This document shows, in pieces, positions 30,937-40,433 of a stretch of DNA of 48,005 nt. Position numbers and translations under genes: made by a program. The stretch lies in NCBI GenBank assembly GCA_040878225.1, contig JBBDMR010000165.1:1-48005 (forward strand), in the 5' to 3' direction. Every line of letters starts with the position of its first letter. Position 1 is the first letter of the stretch. Source of the stretch: Acidimicrobiia bacterium. Its GTDB lineage: Bacteria > Actinomycetota > Acidimicrobiia > Spongiisociales > ZC4RG35. The notes under the pieces were generated by a model. The model was not told the origin of the DNA and searched no databases. It worked only from the letters and a program-made list of their open reading frames with translations.

Positions 30937-32331
30937 ATGCTCCAGGTCTACAACACGCTCGGTCGCACCCTCCAGCCCTTCCTGCCTCGTGATGAGGGCA
31001 AAGTCGGTATCTACCTTTGCGGGCCGACGGTGCAGTCGGAGCCCCACGTCGGCCATGGTCGGTCGGCCGTCGCCTTCGATGTGATACGCCGTTATCTCAT
31101 CTGGAAGGGATACGATGTGACGCTGGTCCGCAACGTCACCGACATCGAGGACAAGATCATCAAGGCAGCCGAGGAGTCGGGTATCCCGGTACAGGAGCTG
31201 GCTGCGACGATGACCGAGCGTTTCGCCAACGGGTACGCTTCACTTGGCGTTGCCGCACCGGACTATGAGCCGAAGGCCACCGAAACCATCGCCGAGATCA
31301 TTGACCTGGTCAAACACCTGATCGATCGAGGGCTTGCCTACGAATCGGACGGCGATGTCTACTTTGCGGTGAGGGCCCTGCAGTCGTACGGGAAGCTCTC
31401 CGGCCACAACCCGGACGAGCTCCGATCGGGCTACCGGATCGAGGTTGGTGAGGCGAAACACGACCCGCTCGACTTCGCCCTGTGGAAAGGGACGAAACCG
31501 GGCGAGCCGTGGTGGGACTCGCCCTGGGGCGCGGGCCGGCCGGGTTGGCATATCGAGTGCTCGGCAATGGCCGAGAAGTACCTCGGGCATGGTTTCGACA
31601 TCCACGGCGGTGGTACCGACCTCATCTTCCCCCACCATGAGAACGAGATCGCCCAGTCGGAGGGAGCGTCGGGGGAAACCTTCGCCCGTTATTGGCTTCA
31701 CAACGGGATGGTGAACCTGGGCGGGGAGAAGATGGCGAAGTCGACCGGCCGCGTCGTCGACCTCGACTCCCTTGCCAGGAAGGTGGGCGGTCGTGCCCTG
31801 CGCATGCTGATGGTGCGCGCCCACTACCGATCGCCACTCGAATACACCGAGGACCTGGTCGAGGAGGCGGCTGAGTCGCTGGATCGCCTCGACCGGCTCC
31901 GAGAACGCGGTGTCGCCGGCGACCCGGACCCCGAGGTCATGGCCCGCTTCGAGGCAGCCATGGACGACGACTTCGGCACACCTCAGGCGGTATCGGTTCT
32001 TTTCGAAGCGGTCCGGGAGGGCAACAAGGCGCTCGACGACGGCGGAGATGCGTCGGCGTTGCTCGGCGCCGTCGAGGAGATTGTGGATGTCCTCGGTCTC
32101 GACGAAGGGACCCTCCCCAAAGAGGCAGCTATCGACCTTGGTGGCCTTGCCTCCAGGTTCGATGTCGGAGGCGGCGACCTCGAAGCGACCGTCAGCGCCC
32201 TCATCGAGAAGAGATCCGAGGCGCGGGCAGAGCGGCGCTTCGACGACGCAGATGCAATCAGAGACGGGCTCGACGCCGCCGGCATCCTTCTGGAGGACGG
32301 GCCTGATGGCACCCGCTGGCTACGGAAGTAG
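30937..32331 (+). CDS. cysS: Cysteine--tRNA ligase
   Basis: '[16 protein letters not shown]' (HIGH motif) and 'KMAKSTG' (KMSKS motif). Confidence 0.95.
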
Positions 32332-33025
32332 GGTCGAGGGCCTCCATGCCGTTGCCGCTGCTGTCGCAGCCGGTCGGGTGGAATGGCTCACGGTCGAGCG
32401 AAAACGTAGATCGCGAGAGGAGATCGCCCGGCTCATCGACGCAGTAGGCGAGGCGAGAACGCTGCTCGTGGACGACACCCGCACCATCGCTGAGACCGAG
32501 GCCCCGCAAGGAGTGGTGGCCGACTGCACCCCGATACTTCCCGTTGAGCTCGACTCCCTGGCCACAGAGACTGCCTCGGTGCTGGTTCTCGACCATCTCG
32601 AAGATCCGCAGAACGTGGGTGCCATCGCCAGGAGTGCCCTGGCCGGCGGATGCTCCGGCCTGGTGATGTCGGGCCGGCGTTCGGCGCCGCTGTCCGCTGC
32701 AGCGTTCAAGGCTGCCGCCGGCGCCCTGGAGCGTCTCCCAGTGGCGGTCGTCGGGTCGATCCCCGAGGCGCTGCAGCGACTAAAGGCGCAGGGTGTCTGG
32801 GCGGTGGGTCTCGACGCCGGAGGCGACCAGTCGTTATTCGGCCTCGCATTGCTGACCGAGCCGGTGGCGATCGTGATCGGGGCCGAAGGGGAGGGCCTCA
32901 GCCACCTCACCGCAAAGCGCTGCGATGTGATCGCCGCCATCCCGATGACAGCGGAGACCGAGTCTCTGAATGCGTCGGTTTCCGCTGCGTTGGCGATATT
33001 TGAGATAATGCGGGCTCGCACCTAG
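32306..33025 (+). CDS. rlmB: SpoU/TrmH-family RNA 2'-O-methyltransferase (RlmB-like)
   Basis: 'LDHLEDPQNVGAIARSA', 'IVIGAEGEGLS' and 'IPMTAETESLNASVSAAL'. ATG 32306 overlaps the cysS end by 26 nt. The track ORF from 31910 runs out of frame inside cysS. Confidence 0.82.
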   Translation: MAPAGYGSRVEGLHAVAAAVAAGRVEWLTVERKRRSREEIARLIDAVGEARTLLVDDTRTIAETEAPQGVVADCTPILPVELDSLATETASVLVLDHLEDPQNVGAIARSALAGGCSGLVMSGRRSAPLSAAAFKAAAGALERLPVAVVGSIPEALQRLKAQGVWAVGLDAGGDQSLFGLALLTEPVAIVIGAEGEGLSHLTAKRCDVIAAIPMTAETESLNASVSAALAIFEIMRART

Positions 33026-33035
33026 CTGCGACCAG

Positions 33036-33111
33036 GCCGGGTTAGCTCAGTTGGTAGAGCAGCTGATTTGTAATCAGCAGGTCATCGGTTCAAATCCGGT
33101 ACCCGGCTCCA
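33036..33111 (+). tRNA. tRNA-Thr (anticodon UGU), CCA encoded
   Basis: Hand-folded cloverleaf: acceptor GCCGGGT/ACCCGGC, D-arm GCTC/GAGC, anticodon stem GCTGA/TCAGC with loop TT-TGT-AA, T-arm ATCGG-TTCAAAT-CCGGT. Confidence 0.92.
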
Positions 33112-33490
33112 GCACATGCAGGGAGTTTGTGGCCACTACCAGGGAAAATAGCTTCACCGTCATCCCTGACCTCTCTCAACGCCTAGCGTCGTTTCGCACC
33201 ATTTTTGGGCGTCTCGTGGCCTCGGTGTGGCCCAGATGTGGCCCAGCCACGTGTCTTTTGAGAGCTGTGTTGTACCGTCGCTGGCCAAAGGCAGCGGGAT
33301 TTCTAGGCGGACCTTTTCGACGAGAGCTTTCGTTGGGCAGCCTGTTTCGCGGTGCCGATCAGGCTGAGTTCGTCTCTCGGTTGAGGGGTCTTGCCGCTGA
33401 TCGGGTGCTGCTGATTCCTGTCGATGTGGGAAGCGGTCGGCGATGGCGGACGGTCTCAGATGTGGGCGACTCCGCCCTCGACAGGCGGGT

Positions 33491-33751
33491 TCATACGTCT
33501 AGCGTGACCTCCGAGAACGGCAGTTCGGGTTCTCCATGCGCGACGAGAGCACCGTTCCAAGTCTTAATCCAACGCTGACCCCAAGTATCGACAAAGGTGA
33601 GGTCAACGTCAGGCTGTCCCGTTTCGGGCATCCCGACGGGCCACTCGAAGTTGTACGACCGGTGGCTCTCAGGAAAGAGCGTTCCCACTGAGGCTCTGGT
33701 CGTCAGGTCATCAGGCGATCCAGCGTTACTTCCCATCGATCGGACGACCAA
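33491..33751 (-). CDS. Hypothetical protein (islet); possibly the 3' part of a frameshifted gene
   Basis: 86-aa ORF with no recognisable motif. Overlaps the ORF 33726-34007 in a frame offset by one nucleotide. Confidence 0.3.
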   Translation of the reverse strand: MVVRSMGSNAGSPDDLTTRASVGTLFPESHRSYNFEWPVGMPETGQPDVDLTFVDTWGQRWIKTWNGALVAHGEPELPFSEVTLDV

Positions 33752-34007
33752 ACTGATCCGCCAGGAACCGAATAGGCGAGCAATATGCCGCTATGCGCTC
33801 TTCAGCAGTCGGATCGTTATCCAGCGAGATCTGGTGATCTGCGCTGCCAAGGCCCAGGGTGGTGGCGGCCTGGGATGTGGTCGGCCCGTTCGGGTCGGGT
33901 GAGGAAGCGTGGTGTACGACGCAAGTGGTTTCGGTGCCAAACCCGGCCACCCCACGCTCCCGGCGCCAGACTCTCCCTGGTGGATTCACTCGCTCCCTAT
34001 GGAGCAA
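33726..34007 (-). CDS. Hypothetical protein (islet); possibly the 5' part of a frameshifted gene
   Basis: 93-aa ORF with a TTG start and no clear RBS. Confidence 0.25.
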   Translation of the reverse strand: MLHRERVNPPGRVWRRERGVAGFGTETTCVVHHASSPDPNGPTTSQAATTLGLGSADHQISLDNDPTAEERIAAYCSPIRFLADQFGRPIDGK

Positions 34008-34200
34008 GCCCTCGTGTTAGGGATCGGACGCCGCAGTCACGGGTTGTGGCACCGCACGAAAACGGAGTTGCAGGAGTATTACGACGCCGCGCGTAGCGGC
34101 GGGGCGTTCGGTTAGGCAGGCCGGGGGTTTTCTTCTATGGGTTGGCCCTTTAGCGCGCGATCTGAGGCGACCTCAGCGATGTGAGGGGAACAGTGTGGAG

Positions 34201-34452
34201 TTACGTGTTTGAGCGAAGTGGTCCGTTGCCCTCCCCTAACCGCTGCAAGTGGCGTATAGCAAACGGAGGCTGCGGAGCCCTCTCTCGAAAACCGTCAATG
34301 GGAATCGGCATCCATCCGCCACCGCTCTCTTCCTGCCCCTCTAGCGCCTCGATCGCATGGTCTCGGCACACGGATCCCGCTGGTGTGATGAAGGAGGCCT
34401 GCCCGTCGCATAAGCGGCAGGCAATCCGACTAAACGTCCGAGTGAATGGCAT
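34201..34452 (-). CDS. Hypothetical small Cys-rich protein (islet)
   Basis: 83 aa, with 'CRLCDG...x13...CRDH' suggesting a small zinc-binding knuckle. No obvious SD sequence. Confidence 0.35.
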   Translation of the reverse strand: MPFTRTFSRIACRLCDGQASFITPAGSVCRDHAIEALEGQEESGGGWMPIPIDGFRERAPQPPFAIRHLQRLGEGNGPLRSNT

Positions 34453-34598
34453 GCAGTCAGTTTTGCTGGCCGACCTAGCTTGTCGCCTACTAAATCACAG
34501 GCACAGGTTTGCACTAGTCACCGGACAAGCCAGGGGTTCAGCCTGGTAGTCTCGGTCCCGTCCGCGGCGTCACATTCACAAGGCCACCCTGGACGCAA

Positions 34599-34655
34599 AA
34601 GAACCCCCGGTAGACCGTCCAAGCATCTCGCAAGGCAGGGCCGACCGGGGTTCTT
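34599..34655 (-). terminator. Long stem-loop downstream of the DUF3892-like gene
   Basis: Arms 'aagaacccc(c)gg' and 'ccggggttctt' give 11 bp with one bulge. On the - strand the stem runs into 'cttttgcg'. Confidence 0.5.
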
Positions 34656-34665
34656 CTATTGACGG

Positions 34666-34917
34666 TTAACAGTCAGGGAGATTGTCGAGGTTATTAGCCT
34701 TCGTTGAGTCCCCTTCGGTCTGCAAGTGACCGTCGCTGGTCAAGTATACGTCTGTCTTGTAGCCGCCCTCGTTGACATAGTAAGAGTGGGTACCATTCTT
34801 AATGTCGCTGATTGCCTCCGCCTTCAACCGTGGGGACCAGGACTCCCCAGAGTTGCAAAGGGATGTGATATCTCCGTCGTCGTCTTTGCCCGTTCGTCGC
34901 ACCCTGCGATCAGCCAT
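34666..34917 (-). CDS. DUF3892-like small protein
   Basis: 83 aa. GGAGGG lies 6 nt upstream of the ATG. 'ITSLCNSGESWSPRLKAEAISDIKNGTHSYYV ... NNLDNLPDC' resembles the DUF3892 pattern as I recall it. Confidence 0.7.
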   Translation of the reverse strand: MADRRVRRTGKDDDGDITSLCNSGESWSPRLKAEAISDIKNGTHSYYVNEGGYKTDVYLTSDGHLQTEGDSTKANNLDNLPDC

Positions 34918-35053
34918 GATGGACCCTCCTCGGTCGCTTCATGCCAACCCTACGCGTATCCCCGCCGAGGATGCGTGGCCCTGGGGAAAGAACATCGGTG
35001 TAGGGTTCTCCAGGTCCAGCGCCAACCTCCCCCACCCTACGGCCCTGGACGCG

Positions 35054-35107
35054 GAAGACCCCCCGGTCGGCGTGCCCATTTGCAGCTTGCCGGCCCGAGG
35101 GGTCTTC
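35054..35107. terminator. Stem-loop downstream of the two-gene operon, related in sequence to 34599-34655
   Basis: Arms 'gaagacccc' and 'ggggtcttc' (9 bp) with a ~36-nt interior. A T-rich run ('tttgttt') follows only on the + strand. Confidence 0.4.
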
Positions 35108-35117
35108 TTTGTTTCGG

Positions 35118-35417
35118 CTATCCGCGCCAGCCGACCCAACGACCCCCAATCTCGTGTTGAATCATTTGGAGCAGGAAGCGGATTGCGGAACCTGTCGACT
35201 CTTCTGATGATTCGTCGTCGTCCGGGTCGCCCCAGTGGTCGAGGAGCCCGTACCGAAGTTCGAGCAGGTCCTTCTCGTCCAGCCGTTTCAGGATTCCACT
35301 CCACGTAACCCCGGCATCCTCCTCATAGGCTGAGGCGTCCAACTCGACCAGGCCGTGGTCGAGCATGTCCGTTTTGTTGTGGTCGTCCAGAGGGACGGGA
35401 ATCATCGAAGCCGTCAT
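35118..35417 (-). CDS. Small strongly acidic hypothetical protein (islet, second gene of the pair)
   Basis: 99 aa. By my count it has 22 Asp/Glu versus 8 Lys/Arg, including 'GDPDDDESSEES'. GAGGAG lies upstream, and the start overlaps the upstream stop (ATGA). Confidence 0.6.
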   Translation of the reverse strand: MTASMIPVPLDDHNKTDMLDHGLVELDASAYEEDAGVTWSGILKRLDEKDLLELRYGLLDHWGDPDDDESSEESTGSAIRFLLQMIQHEIGGRWVGWRG

Positions 35418-35713
35418 ACTCGCTCCTCTTCGGGCTCGAGTGTGGCGGCCGCGTTGAGCATGAGCGCCCGGGCGAACCCGGCGGCGATGTGCTGCCCGTC
35501 GTCTCGGCGCATGTGCTTCGGAACGTTCACCTGGAAGCCGTCCATCACGGAGGCCACCACGGCGACCGTGTTCTCATAGCCCAGCTCCTCATAGGAGCGC
35601 GCGTAGTGGTACAGCTCTTTGCCGATGTCCCGTAGCCGGTTCTCGTCGCTGATAGCGTCCCAGTCGATGGAGTCGATCTCCTGCCGGATTTGCTCTTCGG
35701 TTTTCGTGGTCAT
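35414..35713 (-). CDS. Small hypothetical protein (islet, first gene of the pair)
   Basis: 99 aa. GGAGGG lies 7 nt upstream of the ATG. No recognisable domain. Confidence 0.65.
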   Translation of the reverse strand: MTTKTEEQIRQEIDSIDWDAISDENRLRDIGKELYHYARSYEELGYENTVAVVASVMDGFQVNVPKHMRRDDGQHIAAGFARALMLNAAATLEPEEERV

Positions 35714-35806
35714 TTCTTACCCTCCTAGAGAGTGGATGACTTTGCCGTTTGGCTGGTTCGTGACCAGGGCTTTCACCCTGGTAGCACACCGTTTTCCCCG
35801 TCATAC

Positions 35807-35850
35807 TTTGTTATCAGCAGGTCATCGGTTCAAATCCGGTACCCGGCTCC
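35807..35850 (+). repeat. Displaced tRNA-Thr 3' fragment (att-like direct repeat)
   Basis: 'tttgtTatcagcaggtcatcggttcaaatccggtacccggctcc' versus 33067-33110 'tttgtAatcag...'. Identity is 43/44. Confidence 0.9.
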
Positions 35851-35937
35851 TAGAGACATCTCAGTAAGGCCAGGTGAGCCGGGGGGTTTCTGTGTAGGGG
35901 CCTCCCGTCCGGGTCGGATCGCATACGTTCCGGACTG

Positions 35938-35990
35938 GTAAGAACCCCCGGACCCCATTCCCCCAAAAATTCGGGGGTTCTTACTTTTGT
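35938..35990 (+). terminator. Intrinsic-terminator-like hairpin following the displaced tRNA 3' fragment
   Basis: 12-bp stem 'gtaagaaccccc'/'gggggttcttac' followed by 'ttttgt', with a C-rich 23-nt loop. Consistent with the original tRNA-Thr terminator. Confidence 0.6.
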
Positions 35991-36228
35991 AAACGCCGCC
36001 TGGAGCGGTTAAGACACTCCCACCGCCCACATCGTGAAAAAAAGGGGCACACCCGCGCGTGCTGGGGCAACATCGTCGAGTGAGAGCGACATGGTGGGTA
36101 AATGCCTCCCCGCGGCGAAACCCCCCGAAAGACCACCCGCCGAACAGCTCAGTTGGGCCGGCCAGTCGTTGTTTGGTACCCGCACGCCATACTGCGCTGC
36201 TCCGTGCCAGATATTTCGGTGGAGCGAG

Positions 36229-36291
36229 TCAGAACAGCAAGTTGAGCAGCACCGTCAATACCACGGAAACGATCACCGATATGAGCACCAT
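36229..36291 (-). CDS. Candidate 20-aa hydrophobic peptide MVLISVIVSVVLTVLLNLLF
   Basis: Below the ORF-track cutoff. This frame has G/C at the third position in 16 of 20 codons. The overlapping 50-codon frame has mostly A/T third positions. The SD is weak. Confidence 0.3.
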   Translation of the reverse strand: MVLISVIVSVVLTVLLNLLF

Positions 36292-36352
36292 TGTCAGGCA
36301 TCCCCGGCCGCCCCCGAGGGGCCGGATCGTCATTCGCTTCTGGTTCAACTGT

Positions 36353-36701
36353 CTATGCCCTTGAGTTGGCGATGGCGAGTCCCATGAATACGCCGACTAC
36401 GAAGCCGGCAGCGCCAGCAACGACCGAGGACGCCCAGGCCAGCGATGCTGGCTGCACCGACGGCCGCTCCACCTTGGCGAACAGGTAAAGCCCGAAGATT
36501 TCCAGGATTGTCAGCAAAGGAGCTCCCGCTTTTATCCTTGTAGGCATCGAGATGGTGTTTCACTAACGGAAACGTGAAAAGGTCCAGTTCGCCTCGCACA
36601 TCGATCACCCAAGTGGATGGTTCTTCGGTCACTGCGACGACGAGAGGAGGAGGGTCGTAACCGGATAGGCCACCCCCTAATTCGGAAGTGGTGAAGGTCA
36701 T
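36353..36701 (-). pseudogene. Small membrane-protein gene interrupted by a frame change at an A4 run
   Basis: Strong RBS (AAGGAGAGG) and ATG at 36701 open frame A. Hydrophobic, high-GC3 coding continues only in the frame shifted by one nucleotide (track ORF 36353-36547, two TM segments). The frames can be joined at 'gataaaagc' (36530-36533). Confidence 0.4.
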
Positions 36702-36919
36702 GTCCTGGCCTCTCCTTAGATGGTAAGAGTACGCCGGGGTCTAGGGCAGAAGTGCGGGTTGCGCTTGTCCACCACTATACACCGGCGCATCCGCTCCACG
36801 GAAAAACGGGAAAATTAGCTCTAACTGCTCGCCTCTGCGAAGAAGAACACTCCGCCGTTCTCGTGGCGACAGATCGGATTAACACCCGGCTGAGTATATG
36901 GATACGCCGGGCAGCCTCT

Positions 36920-37050
36920 ATCATCGACTCGCAACGCCGAGCCCGGTCAATAAGCCGGGACGGGGAACCCAAATTTGGGGCGTATCCCGGTCAAATGGCC
37001 GGGTAGAGCACCTTCCAGCTCGAGCCCGTCAGCTAACCCCGTAGGCCTGA
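36920..37050 (+). promoter_or_regulatory. ydaO/kimA-type c-di-AMP riboswitch-like leader
   Basis: 'ACGGGGAACCCA' (36960-71), 'GGGGCGUAUC' (36977-86) and 'CCCGUCAGCUAACCCCGUAGGCC' (37025-47) match my recollection of the ydaO consensus (GGGGAnCCCA ... GGGGUGAAUC ... CCGnCAGCUAACCUCGUAAGC). Two near-identical hairpins, CCCGG-N8-CCGGG (36942-59 and 36986-37003), give pseudo-twofold symmetry. It ends at the SD (GAGGAAGGG) of the antiporter gene. Confidence 0.7.
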
Positions 37051-37065
37051 GGAAGGGATGGTTCA

Positions 37066-39162
37066 ATGGAACCTTTTGCTGGAATAGCCCACGAGGACCT
37101 GCTCAAACTCGTCCTGTCAGTGGCGCTACTCCTCGGCGCTGCCCGACTGCTCGGCGGCCTCATGGAACGATTCAAACAGCCTGCCGTCATCGGGGAGATC
37201 ATGGCCGGGGTCATTCTCGGCCCGTCGGTACTTGGAGGGATATTTCCTGCTTTCGGGCGGCTGGTAGTGCCCCAGACCCTGATCCAATCGCAGTTGCTCG
37301 ACGTGGTCGCCCTGATCGGTGTGATGACACTGATCCTGATGGTCGGGATGGAGACAGACCTGGGACTGATCCGGGCCAGGCTGAAGAGCGCCACGGCCGT
37401 CGGGCTGGGAGGGCTGCTCATCCCTTTTGCCTTCGGGCTGGCGCTGGGTAATTGGCTCCCTGACTCACTGTTGGGTTCGGCGTCGAACCGGGCTGCGTTC
37501 AATATGTTCCTCGCCGTGGCTCTCGCACTTTCGGCGATACCGGTCCTCGCAAAGATCCTCTCCGATCTCCGTCTCTTGCGCAGCGAGTTCGGCCAGACCG
37601 CACTTGCCGCCGGAATGATCGACGACGTGCTCGGCTGGACCCTCCTCGGCCTGGTCACCTCGCTGGCGACTGCCGGTGCCGTGACGTTGGGAGACTTCGC
37701 CTCCACGCTCGGTGCCGTGATCGTGTTCATCGCGCTCACCGTCCTCATCATCGGGCCCGCTACCCGGTGGAGCCTCGACCTGGTCCTCGACCGGGTGCAG
37801 ATCAGGGACCGGGTCCTCACCCTCGTGATCGTCTTCGCCTTCGGCTGGGGTGCGTTCACCCAGGCGCTCCATCTCGAGCCGATCCTCGGGGCGTTCGCGG
37901 TCGGGATGATGTTCGGTCGGCTGCGCCGCCTTCCCGTGGAGACCGGGCGCCAACTGGAAAGTCTCACTTATGGGATCTTCGCTCCCATCTTCCTGGCTAC
38001 TGCCGGGCTCCGGCTCGACATCGGCGTTCTCTTCGAGGGCAGTCTGCTCTGGATCACCGGCGCAATGCTGGCCACGGCTGCTGCCGGGAAACTGATCGGC
38101 TCGTACCTGGGCGCAAGGCTTCTCGGAGGGATCGGGAACCGTCATGCCTGGGCGTACGGGGTTGCCCTGAACGCCAGAGGAGTGCTCGGGGTGATCGTTG
38201 CCAGCATCGGGCTCTCGATGGGCATCTTCGGAGTCGAGCTCTACACAATGCTGGTTGTCGTGTCGCTTGCAACCTCGGTGATGGCTCCTATCGGGCTCCG
38301 CTACCTGATGAAGGATGAGGTCGAGGCCACCGTGAGCGGAGAACCCGCTCTTGCCCTGAACCGAATTCTCGCCCCGGTCCGTCTGCGCGAGGACGGGTCG
38401 ACGCGCTCGTTCGATCCCGCCATCCTGGGAAGTCTCCGGGGCGAATCGCCCGGCGTGACTCTGATGACCGTAGTGAGCCCGGAGGAACGCAAGACCGCCG
38501 GGCAGTACCTATCCGACCTGGCGGACCGGATTCCTGAAGGGCTCGAGGTGACGAAACGGGTGGCGACAGGAGATCCGGTCGAAGCCATCGTCAGGGAGGC
38601 TGAGACAGGGTATGACATGGTCGTGCTGGGCGCACCTGACCCCAAGGCTGGGCCCGACTACCTGTTCGAAGCCACTCTCGACGAGATTGTCCGGTTGGTT
38701 TCTTGCCCGAGCATGATCTTCTCATCGCGGGGCAGCCAATGGCCTCCCCGGCGGATCATGGTCCCCACAGGTGGTGCCGATGCTGCCTCCCGTGCGGCCG
38801 ATCTGGCGTTCGCGCTGAGTGATGAACACAGCCAGGTCCTCTTGTTCCACTCCATCGACCCGGAATCAGCAACCGAAATGGCGATGTCGCTGCAAACCAC
38901 GCCGGCCTCGCGGCTCGAAGTCGGCCACGGCGTGGTCAGCGCCCTCCGGGCCGTTGGCGAAAGGATGGGAGTGTCTGTGGCCACCGAGGTTGTGATGGGA
39001 TCGGGTGTGGTCGATTCGATACTCGAAAGAGCAGCACAGGACATCGACCTGCTCATCATCGGAACGAATGTCAGAGCCGGCTCGCATCGTCTCTACCTGG
39101 GCTCGAAGGTAGAACGGCTGCTCGTCGAGGCTCCGTGCTCGACGATCGTCTTCAACGTCTGA
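37066..39162 (+). CDS. Cation:proton antiporter (CPA2 family) fused to two C-terminal universal-stress-protein domains
   Basis: N-terminal 'QPAVIGEIMAGVILGPSVLG' and ~12 TM segments. The C-terminal ~280 aa contains two USP-like halves ('VTKRVATGDPVEAIVREAETGYDMVVLGA' and 'ATEVVMGSGVVDSILERAAQDIDLLIIGT'). Confidence 0.88.
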   Translation: MEPFAGIAHEDLLKLVLSVALLLGAARLLGGLMERFKQPAVIGEIMAGVILGPSVLGGIFPAFGRLVVPQTLIQSQLLDVVALIGVMTLILMVGMETDLGLIRARLKSATAVGLGGLLIPFAFGLALGNWLPDSLLGSASNRAAFNMFLAVALALSAIPVLAKILSDLRLLRSEFGQTALAAGMIDDVLGWTLLGLVTSLATAGAVTLGDFASTLGAVIVFIALTVLIIGPATRWSLDLVLDRVQIRDRVLTLVIVFAFGWGAFTQALHLEPILGAFAVGMMFGRLRRLPVETGRQLESLTYGIFAPIFLATAGLRLDIGVLFEGSLLWITGAMLATAAAGKLIGSYLGARLLGGIGNRHAWAYGVALNARGVLGVIVASIGLSMGIFGVELYTMLVVVSLATSVMAPIGLRYLMKDEVEATVSGEPALALNRILAPVRLREDGSTRSFDPAILGSLRGESPGVTLMTVVSPEERKTAGQYLSDLADRIPEGLEVTKRVATGDPVEAIVREAETGYDMVVLGAPDPKAGPDYLFEATLDEIVRLVSCPSMIFSSRGSQWPPRRIMVPTGGADAASRAADLAFALSDEHSQVLLFHSIDPESATEMAMSLQTTPASRLEVGHGVVSALRAVGERMGVSVATEVVMGSGVVDSILERAAQDIDLLIIGTNVRAGSHRLYLGSKVERLLVEAPCSTIVFNV

Positions 39163-39245
39163 CCGCTACTTTGCCGGTGCCTCCGCCGGCTGCGGCATGG
39201 GATCCGGCTCGGCTGGGGCCGGCACGGGAATTTCGGGCTCGACCT

Positions 39246-40040
39246 CTATAACTCGTTGGGGCTTTCCAATATCCATCCTGTCTGTTTCCTTTCTTGCTCT
39301 TTCATGTAGGCGGCCATGTTGTCCTCAAACCGACCGTTCACCGATCGGTCTGGCTCTCCATTCAGGTGCCATTCGTCCGAAAGCCCGATCCCCTGGAAGA
39401 GAATCTCGATCTCTTCTGGGTCTTCGGTGGCAAAAATTCTCCCGCGCCTGACGAACGTGAGAGCGAGGACGGTGACACGTTTCGCCCGCCAACCTTGCTC
39501 GTGCTCCACCACTTTCCCTGTCATGGCGACCAGGCCGATCGCCATCGACCCGACGCCGGCGTGAGAGGAGATGAGCCGGTCGACATCCTTCGCTGCATAG
39601 ATGCCACACGGTGGGTCGGCACATTGGCCGTCGGTGTGGGGGACGTCCTCGTTGGTGACACCCCCGGCGCAGATTGCAGACAGAGTGCGGTGCTCCCAGC
39701 GGACCCTGTAGCCGTGGAATTGGCCGTTCTTCATCTCCCACATCCGGAAGCCCAGCATCGGCACCGGTGACCAGGACGGGCCATGCTCGCTCTCTATCTG
39801 CCTGATTACATCGCTCAGGAAGAAGCGGATGGTCTTGTCCAGCCCGCTGACCTCGACATCGAGGGCATCGACTTCGGCCTGGATGACGGCAAGCCGGGCT
39901 CGTAGGTCCCGGAGTCGCGCGTGTTTGCGGCGCAAAGTGAGGAGCAGGCGATCGAGGCTGGGCGGGGAGCCGGAAATCCTGTATTTGAGGCGCAGCCGTT
40001 CCCATTCACGATTCAACCGGTGAACGCTGATGTCGGACAT
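39246..40040 (-). CDS. Hypothetical protein: N-terminal coiled coil plus C-terminal Cys/His domain; candidate SOS-regulated gene
   Basis: 264 aa. 'RLRDLRARLAVIQAEVDALDVEVSGLDKTI' is followed by 'GFRMWEM..GYRVRWE..AICAGGVTNEDVPHTDGQCADPPCGIYAAKD' (C-x10-H-x4-C-x4-C). I could not assign a family. Confidence 0.75.
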   Translation of the reverse strand: MSDISVHRLNREWERLRLKYRISGSPPSLDRLLLTLRRKHARLRDLRARLAVIQAEVDALDVEVSGLDKTIRFFLSDVIRQIESEHGPSWSPVPMLGFRMWEMKNGQFHGYRVRWEHRTLSAICAGGVTNEDVPHTDGQCADPPCGIYAAKDVDRLISSHAGVGSMAIGLVAMTGKVVEHEQGWRAKRVTVLALTFVRRGRIFATEDPEEIEILFQGIGLSDEWHLNGEPDRSVNGRFEDNMAAYMKEQERKQTGWILESPNEL

Positions 40041-40064
40041 CGTCCCGACAACCTAGCGGGCGGG

Positions 40065-40080
40065 TCGAACAAATGTTCGA
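40065..40080. promoter_or_regulatory. LexA (SOS) box, TCGAAC-AAAT-GTTCGA
   Basis: Perfect match to the actinobacterial/mycobacterial SOS-box consensus TCGAAC-N4-GTTCGA. It lies 24 nt upstream of the 39246-40040 start codon and 98 nt upstream of the DUF3263 gene. Confidence 0.8.
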
Positions 40081-40178
40081 TCAATCCACAGCCAGGTTTT
40101 CGCGATCTCTGCCGAGAGTCGCCCCAGAGGCGCCGGTGGCCGGCCCTGACAAACCAGGCTAAATGCACCGGTAAGAAC

Positions 40179-40433
40179 ATGACTGTAAATACGCTGGATT
40201 CGATGCTCGACGACATGGACAGGGCTGTCCTCGACTACGAGAGGGGATGGTCCAATCAATCAGGTCCCAAGGACCGGTCAATCGAGATGGACCTCGGGCT
40301 TACCGCCGGGGCTTACTACGCGCGTCTCAGAAGGCTGATTTCCGATAGCCGGGCCACCACCTATGATCCATTGACAGTGCTGCGACTCCGGCGAATTATC
40401 GATCCTCCGGACCCGGCAGAGGCGGTTGGGTGA
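40179..40433 (+). CDS. DUF3263-like small protein
   Basis: 'AVLDYERGWSNQSGPKDRSIEMDLGLTAGAYYARLRRLISDSRATTYDPLTVLRLRR' fits the DUF3263 pattern as I recall it. ATG at 40179. The upstream part of the track ORF is antisense to the neighbouring gene. Confidence 0.72.
   Translation: MTVNTLDSMLDDMDRAVLDYERGWSNQSGPKDRSIEMDLGLTAGAYYARLRRLISDSRATTYDPLTVLRLRRIIDPPDPAEAVG

What the first reader, a model, noticed from the sequence alone, without database searches (positions are those of the whole stretch)
33036..35990. 2.7-kb integrase-less islet at tRNA-Thr, flanked by 44-bp tRNA-derived direct repeats
The segment from the anticodon loop to the 3' end of tRNA-Thr (33067-33110) is repeated at 35807-35850 (43/44 identical). 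The right-hand copy is followed by a strong terminator-like hairpin (35938-35990). This is the arrangement expected if an element inserted into the tRNA gene and displaced the original 3' end and terminator. The enclosed 2.7 kb has no ORF resembling a tyrosine or serine recombinase. It carries only six small - strand ORFs, one DUF3892-like and the rest unknown, separated by long hairpins. The sequence next to the tRNA (33112-33490) is non-coding and contains a tandem 'gtggcccag' motif (33229-33248). This is either a decayed island or a minimal element mobilised in trans. Either way its cargo is uncharacterised.
Basis: partly seen in the sequence, partly recalled or inferred. Interest (0 to 1): 0.65.

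Follow-up and report, generated by a model that had tools for sequence, protein, structure and literature searches.

The report
Decayed integrative-element remnant at tRNA-Thr
The 2.7-kb stretch is what is left of a mobile element that once inserted into a threonine tRNA gene and later lost its own insertion enzyme; this is an ordinary kind of genomic scar, in a poorly sampled actinobacterial lineage whose tRNA gene is a repeatedly used landing site.

Summary
tRNA-Thr(TGT) lies at 33036-33111. Its last 44 nt recur at 35807-35850 (43/44). No recombinase is detectable in between. The repeat is a true integration scar. In a related Actinomycetota MAG (locus L084) the same rlmB-tRNA-Thr site carries a 10.16-kb element. 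That element is bounded by a perfect 43-nt repeat of the same tRNA segment and encodes a tyrosine integrase, a replication-initiator-like protein and a small-terminase-like protein. It shares the window's right-end arm and first gene (O6). A closer relative (JGI contigs L093-L098) has a smaller (~2.07 kb), also integrase-less, version. In two samples an integrase-bearing element sits in tandem next to it. In the window only O4 (DUF3892), O5 and O6 look like genes. O1 is a gene fragment, and O2 and O3 are unsupported. An allele common in the source population has lost 180 bp, including half of attR. The "displaced terminator" hairpin lies in a 1.06-kb segment that relatives lack, probably an older remnant. 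Best reading: stacked, decaying, CIME-like remnants at a tRNA hotspot. A trans-mobilised mini-element is possible but less likely. This is a new member of a known kind, of modest interest.

The parts
33036..33111 (+). tRNA-Thr(TGT), intact. Its 3' part is attL.
   Evidence: ARAGORN; Rfam RF00005 at 72.9 bits. It is 100% identical to the tRNA in relative L097.
33067..33110 (+). attL core: the tRNA segment from the anticodon loop to the 3' end
   Evidence: Direct repeat family D1. The same segment forms the 43-nt repeat around the 10.16-kb element in L084.
33112..33490 (.). Non-coding left end. It holds three GTGGCC(C/T)(A/C)G copies at an 11-nt period (33216-33246) and a terminator-like hairpin at 33236-33252 (+).
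   Evidence: Flat GC1/2/3; no family hit in six frames; motif; hairpin. Contigs about 91-94% identical exist in other samples or strains: X4 covers 33140-33348 and X2 covers 33264-33420.
33491..33751 (-). O1: a 3' fragment of a longer gene (pseudogene-like)
   Evidence: Only 33479-33717 matches (89% nt) the 3' part of a 117-aa gene (P0006, locus L087), which sits next to a different downstream ORF. The flanks are unrelated.
33909..34115 (+). 68-codon + strand ORF ('P68'). It coincides with the only left-half segment shared with the close relative (33915-34106, 93% nt). 33914/33915 is a mosaic breakpoint.
   Evidence: blastn. In the alignment, 7 of about 12 substitutions are synonymous in this frame, but the relative has two compensating 1-nt indels. 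An X9 contig is identical over 33811-33914 and then diverges. There is no Pfam hit. The overlapping - strand ORF O2 (33726-34007) has no support.
34135..34526 (.). 'O3 module': a widely distributed, conserved segment lying between two half-hairpin arms (34121-34134 / 34597-34610). The annotated O3 ORF (34201-34452, -) is not supported.
   Evidence: Inverted repeat I3. The segment is present at 90-98% identity in many soil, sand and sediment runs. The codon phase of substitutions does not fit O3 (hand count). No Rfam hit.
34599..34655 (.). Long terminator-like hairpin with stem AAGAACCCCCGG
   Evidence: L086 986-1098 matches window 34544-34655, which includes this hairpin (71%).
34666..34917 (-). 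O4: DUF3892 protein (83 aa)
   Evidence: PF13031, E = 1.4e-7, 32.3 bits against a cut-off of 22.3. Coding-like GC3. Absent from the relative's islet.
35055..35106 (.). Long terminator-like hairpin after O5
   Evidence: -41.7 kcal/mol, z = -2.6; repeat family D2.
35118..35417 (-). O5: acidic 99-aa protein, a conserved cargo gene
   Evidence: GC2 0.38 / GC3 0.72. Six homologues at 67-85% identity, all in small tRNA-linked islets. The AF2 model is helical but of low confidence.
35414..35713 (-). O6: 99-aa protein, the first gene of the right-end module. It overlaps O5 by 4 nt.
   Evidence: GC3 0.85. Homologues in L084 (57%) and L086 (69%). Only 9 cluster representatives among 1.84 billion proteins. 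The AF2 model is of low confidence and has no fold match.
35728..35806 (.). Conserved right arm next to attR (an attP arm and/or the O6 promoter-leader)
   Evidence: 76-82% identical to the arm in L084/L085 and in L093-L098. It also aligns with arms that flank a tRNA-Asn-derived core in L086 and L106.
35807..35850 (+). attR core: the displaced copy of the tRNA 3' part (43/44)
   Evidence: In relative L093/L095 the equivalent copy is 44/44.
35652..35831 (.). 180-bp segment missing in a co-existing allele. The deletion removes the O6 start, the right arm and 25 nt of attR.
   Evidence: Contig L001. Joint 35651>35832 at depth 13.6, against about 5 for the undeleted form, in run X3.
35851..36906 (.). 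1.06-kb segment absent from relatives, probably an older element remnant. It includes hairpin 35940-35982, a - strand terminator at 36047-36062, and the weak ORF O7 (36345-36701).
   Evidence: In L093 the core is joined to 36921 through 37 nt. X6 and X10 show joints 35850>36907 and 35850>36906. 35915-36042 is 75% identical to the left end of an islet at tRNA-Leu in L089. No third degenerate core was found.

Best explanation
The islet is a decayed, integrase-less derivative of a tRNA-Thr-targeting integrative element. It is 'CIME-like': the att sites are kept and the recombination module is lost. It sits at an integration hotspot that holds at least two stacked remnants.

Inferred history:
1. 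An older element integrated into tRNA-Thr and decayed to 35851-36906, losing its distal att site.
2. A second element of the family seen intact in L084 then integrated. A tyrosine integrase recombined an attP core, which copies the tRNA from the anticodon loop to the 3' end, with the tRNA gene. This rebuilt the tRNA (attL) and pushed the old 3' part to 35807-35850 (attR).
3. Deletions and recombination with related elements removed the integrase, replication and packaging genes. What remains is the conserved right arm, the O6-O5 operon, a DUF3892 gene, terminator hairpins, and a left half made of non-coding and fragmentary pieces.

The islet cannot excise by itself. It could move only if an incoming element with a matching integrase lands beside it, as seen in relatives. 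O4, O5 and O6 are probably retained accessory (moron-like, possibly defence-related) genes. That function is a guess.

Shown: the repeat; the absence of an integrase; homology of the right end to an integrase-bearing element at the same site; the tandem arrangement in relatives; the deletion allele.
Inferred: the order of events; loss by deletion; the gene functions.
For: - Same site, same core segment, same right end in an intact element. L084 has rlmB, tRNA-Thr(TGT), a tyrosine integrase (PF00589; phrog_1, E = 1.9e-51), a replication-initiator-like protein and a TerS-like protein. Its distal end carries an O6 homologue, the conserved arm and a perfect 43-nt repeat, followed by DUF3263. The window homologue of DUF3263 is at 40203-40424.
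- The arm plus an O6-like gene also occur next to a tRNA-Asn-derived core, so this is a bona fide element terminus.
- The close relative (L093-L098) has a ~2.07-kb integrase-less islet between the same tRNA and the same antiporter backbone, with a 44/44 repeat.
- In L095 and L096, from two samples, the islet is followed by only 55 nt of the tRNA and then the 3' end of a tyrosine-integrase gene. The fragment hits PF00589 positions 143-168 and is 72% identical to a 398-aa PF00589 protein. This is tandem accretion.
- Signs of decay: flat coding statistics for O1-O3; O1 is a gene fragment; there are mosaic breakpoints; a 180-bp deletion allele that removes half of attR is the majority form in one sample.
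- Islet depth equals flank depth in three samples, for example 13.1 / 13.6 / 13.6.
- The left ends of the window, L097 and L084 do not align beyond the core.
Against: - No truly empty tRNA-Thr site was found in a close relative. Only distant relatives (54-58% CysS identity) lack a second core copy.
- Small integrase-less islets carrying the same O5/O6-type module recur at tRNA-Thr and at tRNA-Leu (L089). A right end of the same module with a tRNA-Asn core also occurs on two short contigs (L086, L106). An 853-nt piece is 95% identical between the Thr and Leu islets. That recurrence is more than simple independent decay predicts.
- attR is still 43/44 here and 44/44 in the relative.
- Only Logan contigs (k = 31), not reads, were available, so excised circles or repaired sites could not be seen.
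- Only 48 kb of the genome is available, so a cognate integrase elsewhere cannot be excluded.
Confidence: 0.7

Rival explanations
1. The islet is a functional miniature element: an integrase-less hitchhiker. It keeps both att sites and is excised, transferred and re-integrated in trans or in cis by the integrase of a full-length relative (L084-type or the tandem 'E2' element). This would be analogous to a MITE relative to a transposon.
For: - Small integrase-less islets of about 2-2.7 kb with the same module occur at tRNA-Thr (window, L093-L098) and tRNA-Leu (L089-L092). A right end with a tRNA-Asn core occurs on two short contigs (L086, L106).
- The right arm is conserved.
- attR is 43/44 in the window and 44/44 in the relative.
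- An 853-nt piece is 95% identical between islets at different tRNAs.
- An integrase-bearing element lies in tandem in L095 and L096.
- The left end carries three phased 9-mers that could be protein-binding sites. It is conserved at about 91% in a more abundant relative in X4.
Against: - Left ends are not conserved between the two tRNA-Thr islets, or with L084.
- Islet content differs greatly between relatives.
- A half-attR deletion allele is frequent.
- Depth shows no excess over the flanks.
- L089's arms are unrelated to this family's arm.
- No O5 or O6 relatives were found in IMG/VR.
Confidence: 0.17
2. The islets in the window lineage and in the L093 lineage descend from one ancient insertion that has been fixed and is maintained for its cargo (a domesticated O5/O6/DUF3892 cassette). 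The repeat is an inert relic with no remaining link to mobile elements.
For: - The same position between the tRNA and the antiporter backbone in both lineages. O5 divergence (83% nt) is similar to backbone divergence (78% nt).
- O5 and O6 show strong coding signatures and are conserved.
Against: - The window has 1.06 kb between attR and the backbone that the relatives lack. This is hard to reconcile with one shared insertion event.
- Gene content differs: DUF3892 and the O3 module occur only in the window, and the 102-, 77- and 116-aa genes only in the relative.
- The P68 segment is 93% identical and another piece is 95% identical to an islet at a different tRNA. This indicates recent exchange.
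- O6 is truncated in a major allele.
Confidence: 0.1
3. The 44-nt repeat arose by a local duplication or rearrangement unrelated to site-specific integration.
For: None beyond the absence of an integrase.
Against: - The repeat starts in the anticodon loop and ends at the tRNA 3' end. The same holds for the repeat around the integrase-bearing L084 element.
- A conserved element arm abuts the core.
- The islet has lower GC than its flanks (0.56-0.64 against 0.64-0.685).
Confidence: 0.02

Closest known systems
CIMEs (cis-mobilizable elements) and tandem accretion, as defined for ICESt1/ICESt3-related elements of Streptococcus thermophilus (review PMC5704250, read; it cites Pavlovic 2004 and Bellanger 2011)
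   Same: [quoted passage not shown] A newer integrase-bearing element lands next to it, giving attL-element-attI-remnant-attR. That arrangement is seen here in L095 and L096.
   Different: The parent family here is not shown to be conjugative; the intact relative looks satellite- or phage-like. The host is an uncultured actinobacterium and the target is a tRNA. Mobilisation is not shown. One att site is being lost in part of the population.
PICI-type phage satellites (five core components listed in PMC10085698, read)
   Same: The intact relative L084 is about 10 kb and is integrated at a tRNA. It has an integrase, a replication-initiator-like protein and a small-terminase-like protein, with accessory genes at the distal end. 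No capsid, tail or lysis genes were recognised.
   Different: L084 shows only 3 of the 5 core functions, at modest E-values. The window islet has none of the five, so it is not a satellite itself.
Actinomycete integrative and conjugative elements such as pSAM2, SLP1 and pSE101 (from my own knowledge, not tested here)
   Same: An actinobacterial host, a tyrosine integrase, and integration into the 3' part of tRNA genes with an identity segment of some tens of nt running from the anticodon loop to the 3' end.
   Different: No Rep, FtsK-like Tra, Nudix or Spd genes were recognised in L084 or in the window.
Cryptic prophage or genomic-island remnants ('islets') at tRNA hotspots
   Same: Flanking partial tRNA repeat, lower GC, orphan small genes, mosaicism, stacked remnants.
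   Different: None of substance. This is the class it belongs to.

Membership tests
tRNA-integrated island made by tyrosine-recombinase site-specific integration | An intact tRNA at one end and a direct repeat of its 3' part at the other | tested here: met
tRNA-integrated island made by tyrosine-recombinase site-specific integration | An integrase gene inside the element | tested here: not met
   No hit in ORF or six-frame family scans, or in a tblastn with the L084 integrase.
tRNA-integrated island made by tyrosine-recombinase site-specific integration | Homologous elements with an integrase at the same attachment site | tested here: met
   L084: a 10.16-kb element with a 43-nt repeat of the same tRNA segment, a shared arm and a shared O6 gene.
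tRNA-integrated island made by tyrosine-recombinase site-specific integration | An unoccupied site in related genomes | tested here: inconclusive
   Distant relatives L004-L006 have a single core copy. Closer relatives carry variant islets. Contigs in X6 and X10 join a core directly to the backbone, but unitigs cannot tell a tRNA from an attR.
CIME (cis-mobilizable element) | [quoted passage not shown] | tested here: met
   definition from PMC5704250. Caveat: a frequent allele has only 19 nt of attR left.
CIME (cis-mobilizable element) | Derived from an ICE or IME | tested here: inconclusive
   The intact relative L084 shows no recognisable conjugation or mobilisation genes. It looks satellite-like.
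CIME (cis-mobilizable element) | Accretion with an incoming element, and excision of the composite | not testable with these tools
   The tandem arrangement is seen in L095 and L096. Excision needs reads or an experiment.
PICI-type phage satellite | The core set: integrase, regulator, primase-replicase, capsid-morphogenesis gene, small terminase (PMC10085698) | tested here: not met
   None of the five is in the window islet. L084 has three candidates.
Miniature non-autonomous element mobilised in trans | Both element ends conserved among copies and with the autonomous partner | tested here: not met
   The right arm is conserved. The left ends do not align.
DUF3892 (PF13031) protein | A match to the Pfam model above the gathering score | tested here: met
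   O4: 32.3 bits against 22.3.

The most novel reading that the evidence does not exclude
The 2-2.7-kb integrase-less islets that carry the O5/O6-type module, seen at tRNA-Thr and tRNA-Leu (and as a right end with a tRNA-Asn core) in uncultured Actinomycetota, could be a family of non-autonomous mini-elements. They would hitchhike on the integrases of full-length satellite-like elements. Conserved terminator hairpins would serve as the module boundaries at which cargo is swapped.
Probability: 0.15. Interest if true: 0.6.

Novelty: new member of a known kind. Interest (0 to 1): 0.3.

Why it matters
In itself the finding matters little. It is a textbook outcome of integration, decay and accretion at a tRNA gene. 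Its value is local.
- It shows that cysS-rlmB-tRNA-Thr(TGT) is an active landing site in a deeply branching, poorly sampled actinobacterial lineage.
- It links a rare gene pair (O5/O6; the O6 family has 9 cluster representatives among 1.84 billion proteins) to the distal, accessory end of small integrase-bearing, satellite-like elements.
- It gives natural examples of three states of the locus: the full element, the remnant, and the remnant with an incoming element beside it.

If the cargo (DUF3892, O5, O6) proves to be phage-defence related, the locus would be an example of a host retaining accessory genes from a mobile element.

Tried and rejected
- Family scans (Pfam, PHROGs, NCBIfam, PADLOC) of all islet ORFs gave only DUF3892.
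- A six-frame Pfam scan of 33100-34700 gave no recombinase remnant.
- blastn against the phage and plasmid collections matched only the DUF3892 gene.
- Rfam on the islet, including a lax run, found only the tRNA.
- The genome-contig scan with CysS found nearest genomes only 54-58% identical, so there is no close empty site.
- The metagenome and IMG/VR scans with O6 and O5 alignments found almost nothing.
- An IMG/VR exact search for the E2 junction gave 0 hits.
- AF2 models of O5 and O6 had pLDDT 62-63. Foldseek against the PDB gave no match below E = 1. PDB sequence searches were empty.
- A search for a third, degenerate core copy in 35856-40400 found nothing above the null.
- The scripting machine was lost. 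The codon-phase counts for the O3 module are therefore hand counts.
- I considered whether 35938-35990 is the original tRNA terminator and rejected it.


Full report
**1. The observation**

The window has a single tRNA gene, tRNA-Thr(TGT), at 33036-33111 on the + strand (Rfam 72.9 bits). It lies downstream of cysS (30937-32331) and a SpoU/RlmB-type methyltransferase gene that ends at 33025.

The 44 nt from the anticodon loop to the CC of the 3' end (33067-33110) recur at 35807-35850 with one mismatch (33072 A / 35812 T). The 24-nt 3' core occurs exactly twice in 48 kb, with none expected by chance.

The hairpins, the DUF3892 hit and the tandem motif are all real. The motif is three copies at an 11-nt period (33216-33246).

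**2. What is inside the islet**

Only O4 (DUF3892, 34666-34917), O5 (35118-35417) and O6 (35414-35713) have the low-GC2, high-GC3 pattern of the flanking housekeeping genes. O1, O2 and O3 are flat.

- O1 is a fragment. Only 33479-33717 matches, at 89% nt, the 3' part of a 117-aa gene found elsewhere (P0006, L087), next to a different downstream ORF and with unrelated flanks.
- The only left-half segment shared with a close relative is 33915-34106 (93% nt). It coincides with a + strand 68-codon ORF in which most substitutions are synonymous. Two compensating 1-nt indels in the relative leave its status open.
- The 'O3' stretch (34135-34526) lies between two half-hairpin arms. It is present at 90-98% identity in many unrelated soil, sand and sediment runs. 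The phase of its substitutions does not fit O3. I could not explain it.
- No recombinase remnant is detectable. This holds for ORF-level searches, a six-frame Pfam scan of 33100-34700 at E<=10, and a tblastn with the integrase of the related element.

**3. An intact relative at the same site**

O6 has very few homologues: 4 in the 5.8-billion-protein search and 9 cluster representatives among 1.84 billion proteins.

One homologue (57% identity) lies in an Actinomycetota MAG (GCA_046537785.1, locus L084). In window orientation that locus reads as follows:
- rlmB and tRNA-Thr(TGT);
- a tyrosine integrase about 100 nt downstream (PF00589; phrog_1, E = 1.9e-51);
- a phrog_2842 protein;
- an HTH_36 replication-initiator-like protein (phrog_270, E = 8e-8);
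- small ORFs, including a small-terminase-like protein (phrog_1496, E = 8.5e-11);
- a 644-aa BNR_4 protein and a membrane protein;
- a 145-aa gene, the O6 homologue and a 100-aa gene;
- a perfect 43-nt copy of the same tRNA segment, 10,158 nt from the first copy;
- DUF3263, LytR_C, a 285-aa gene and an AI-2E transporter.

The window has the same backbone order from 40203 onward.

Besides O6, the roughly 80 nt between O6 and the core (window 35728-35806) are 76% identical to L084. The same arm aligns with contigs in which the adjacent core derives from a tRNA-Asn(GTT) (L086, L106). So the window's right end is a genuine terminus of a family of integrating elements whose members use different tRNA cores.

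L084 has three of the five PICI core functions listed in PMC10085698 and no recognised capsid, tail or lysis genes. It looks like a small satellite-type or similar integrative element. I do not claim more than that.

**4. A closer relative of the locus**

O5 homologues led to JGI metagenome contigs L093-L098. There the same antiporter-Usp gene (78% nt) is followed, after only 37 nt, by these features:
- a core copy that is 44/44 identical to the tRNA;
- the arm (82% over arm plus core);
- a 102-aa gene, a 77-aa gene and an O5 homologue (83% nt);
- a reverse 116- or 136-aa gene and hairpins;
- the 33915-34106 segment, then 36 nt, then the complete tRNA-Thr (L097).

That islet is 2,070 nt from core to core, also has no integrase, and has a different gene set. 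It lacks DUF3892, the O3 module, O1 and 33112-33914.

In L095 and L096, which come from two different samples, the same islet is followed by only 55 nt of the tRNA (33057-33111). Nine nt further on is the 3' end of a gene that reads toward the core and ends ...AVQRMLGHASAKMTLDTYGSLF.... This fragment matches PF00589 positions 143-168 (E = 0.006 for a 27-residue piece). It is 72% identical to the C-terminus of a 398-aa IMG/VR protein that is a clear PF00589 integrase.

This is the arrangement expected if a second, integrase-bearing element ('E2') integrated into the tRNA of a genome that already carried the islet. It matches the accretion structure described for CIMEs (PMC5704250). An assembly chimera through the 55-nt tRNA stretch cannot be fully excluded. 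However, the junction recurs in two samples with small sequence differences.

**5. Right of attR**

Relatives argue against that.
- L093 joins the core to window position 36921.
- Contigs in two other studies join 35850 to 36906 or 36907.
- 36925-37062 is a c-di-AMP riboswitch (81.3 bits, E = 1.5e-19) upstream of the antiporter.

So 35851-36906 is specific to the window lineage. Its hairpin shares stem and flank with the islet's internal hairpins. Also, 35915-36042 is 75% identical to the left end of another tRNA-flanked islet in L089.

The simplest reading is that this 1.06 kb is an older remnant whose distal att site is gone; no third core copy was found. On that reading, 35807-35850 was once the 3' part of the tRNA at that older element's attL.

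**6. The source population**

The window comes from a sediment metagenome. In three runs the islet's depth equals that of its flanks, for example 13.1 / 13.6 / 13.6 in X3. There is therefore no sign of extra copies or of a large islet-free subpopulation.

A second allele lacks 35652-35831. The deletion removes the O6 start, the arm and 25 nt of attR. In X3 this allele has depth 13.6, against about 5 for the undeleted form. Selection is evidently not holding attR or an intact O6 in place.

Because the runs are held only as k = 31 contigs and the repeat has 38 exact nt, circle or repaired-site junctions cannot be seen. This is the main gap in the evidence.

**7. A complication**

The same kind of module also lies in a 2.27-kb integrase-less islet flanked by a 46-nt copy of the 5' half of tRNA-Leu(TAG) in L089. 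That tRNA has a second 3-kb integrase-less islet on its other side, flanked by a 56-nt copy of its 3' half.

An 853-nt piece (the O5 homologue plus the 116-aa gene) is 95% identical between the tRNA-Leu islet and the tRNA-Thr islet of L095, while neighbouring genes are only 71% identical.

Four points weigh against it:
- The left ends of the window, L097 and L084 do not align beyond the core.
- The arms of L089 are unrelated to this family's arm.
- Islet contents differ widely between relatives.
- attR is being lost in part of the population.

I read the recurrence as repeated retention of the distal accessory module, plus homologous exchange with passing relatives. Conserved terminator hairpins would act as the module boundaries.

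**8. Mechanism and function**

- Integration by a tyrosine integrase at the anticodon-loop-to-3'-end segment is inferred from L084, and from established knowledge of tRNA-targeting integrases.
- Loss of the integrase by deletion is inferred.
- Possible cis-mobilisation after accretion is suggested by L095 and L096 but is untested.
- O6 and O5 overlap by 4 nt, are small, acidic and predicted helical, and have no recognisable relatives or fold matches.
- DUF3892 has been predicted, not shown, to be defence-linked (bioRxiv 10.1101/2022.04.27.489752, which cites Burroughs and Aravind 2020).
- Calling the cargo accessory or defence-like is a guess.

**9. Verdict**

The islet is an integration scar and a decaying, CIME-like remnant at a tRNA hotspot that holds at least two stacked remnants.

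| Reading | Confidence |
|---|---|
| Decayed, CIME-like remnant | 0.70 |
| Trans-mobilised mini-element | about 0.17 |
| One ancient insertion, fixed and domesticated | 0.10 |
| Duplication unrelated to integration | 0.02 |

It is a new member of a known kind. Interest is 0.3.

Noticed in passing
window 36925-37062 (+): A c-di-AMP riboswitch (RF00379, 81.3 bits, E = 1.5e-19) lies directly upstream of a 698-aa Na+/H+ exchanger fused to Usp domains (37066-39162). It marks where the conserved backbone resumes after the islets.
   Followed up: yes
window 34135-34526: A segment of about 390 nt is held at 90-98% identity by many unrelated soil, sand and sediment metagenomes. An ice metatranscriptome also holds part of it, with 6 differences over 34193-34390. 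Homology ends sharply at 34526. Eight substitutions at 34455-34491 fall in one codon phase, shared by the - strand ORF 34341-34514 and a + frame. The common variant 34449 G>T makes a TGA that overlaps the ATG of O3. The nature of this segment is unresolved.
   Followed up: partly
window 35652-35831; locus L001 (SRR27977658): A 180-bp deletion allele co-exists with the window's allele and is the majority form in one run. It fuses O6 to sequence right of attR (a 121-aa ORF, P0002) and leaves 19 nt of attR.
   Followed up: yes
L084:9562-19762 (GCA_046537785.1, contig JBKHKD010000007.1): A 10.16-kb element lies at tRNA-Thr in an Actinomycetota MAG. It has an integrase, a replication-initiator-like protein, a small-terminase-like protein and a 644-aa BNR_4 protein, with no recognised capsid, tail or lysis genes. 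It is a candidate actinobacterial phage satellite.
   Followed up: partly
L089:3996-9411 (JGI 3300031965): One tRNA-Leu(TAG) has integrase-less islets on both sides. One (2.27 kb) is bounded by a 46-nt copy of the tRNA's 5' half. The other (3 kb) is bounded by a 56-nt copy of its 3' half. Short repeated motifs lie near the att sites.
   Followed up: partly
L095:2138-2284 and L096:1617-1881: The 3' end of a tyrosine-integrase gene abuts a 55-nt tRNA-Thr-derived core next to the relative's islet. This second element uses the same tRNA with a longer core. Its body is not on the contigs.
   Followed up: partly
window 33914/33915: This is a mosaic breakpoint. One sediment run (X9) holds a contig identical over 33811-33914 that then diverges. 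The relative's homology (33915-34106) starts at the next base.
   Followed up: no
window 33140-33348: A 311-nt contig in run X4 matches this non-coding left-end stretch at about 91%, at roughly 30x depth. The rest of the islet there is at most about 6x or absent. The left end therefore exists in another, more abundant context that was not recovered.
   Followed up: no
window 36345-36701 (-): The N-terminal half of ORF O7 reads like a STAS/anti-sigma-antagonist fragment. Its frame overlaps a 64-codon membrane-like ORF (36353-36547). It has weak coding statistics and no family hit, so it is probably a pseudogene within the older remnant. The STAS reading is my own impression from the sequence and was not tested.
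   Followed up: no
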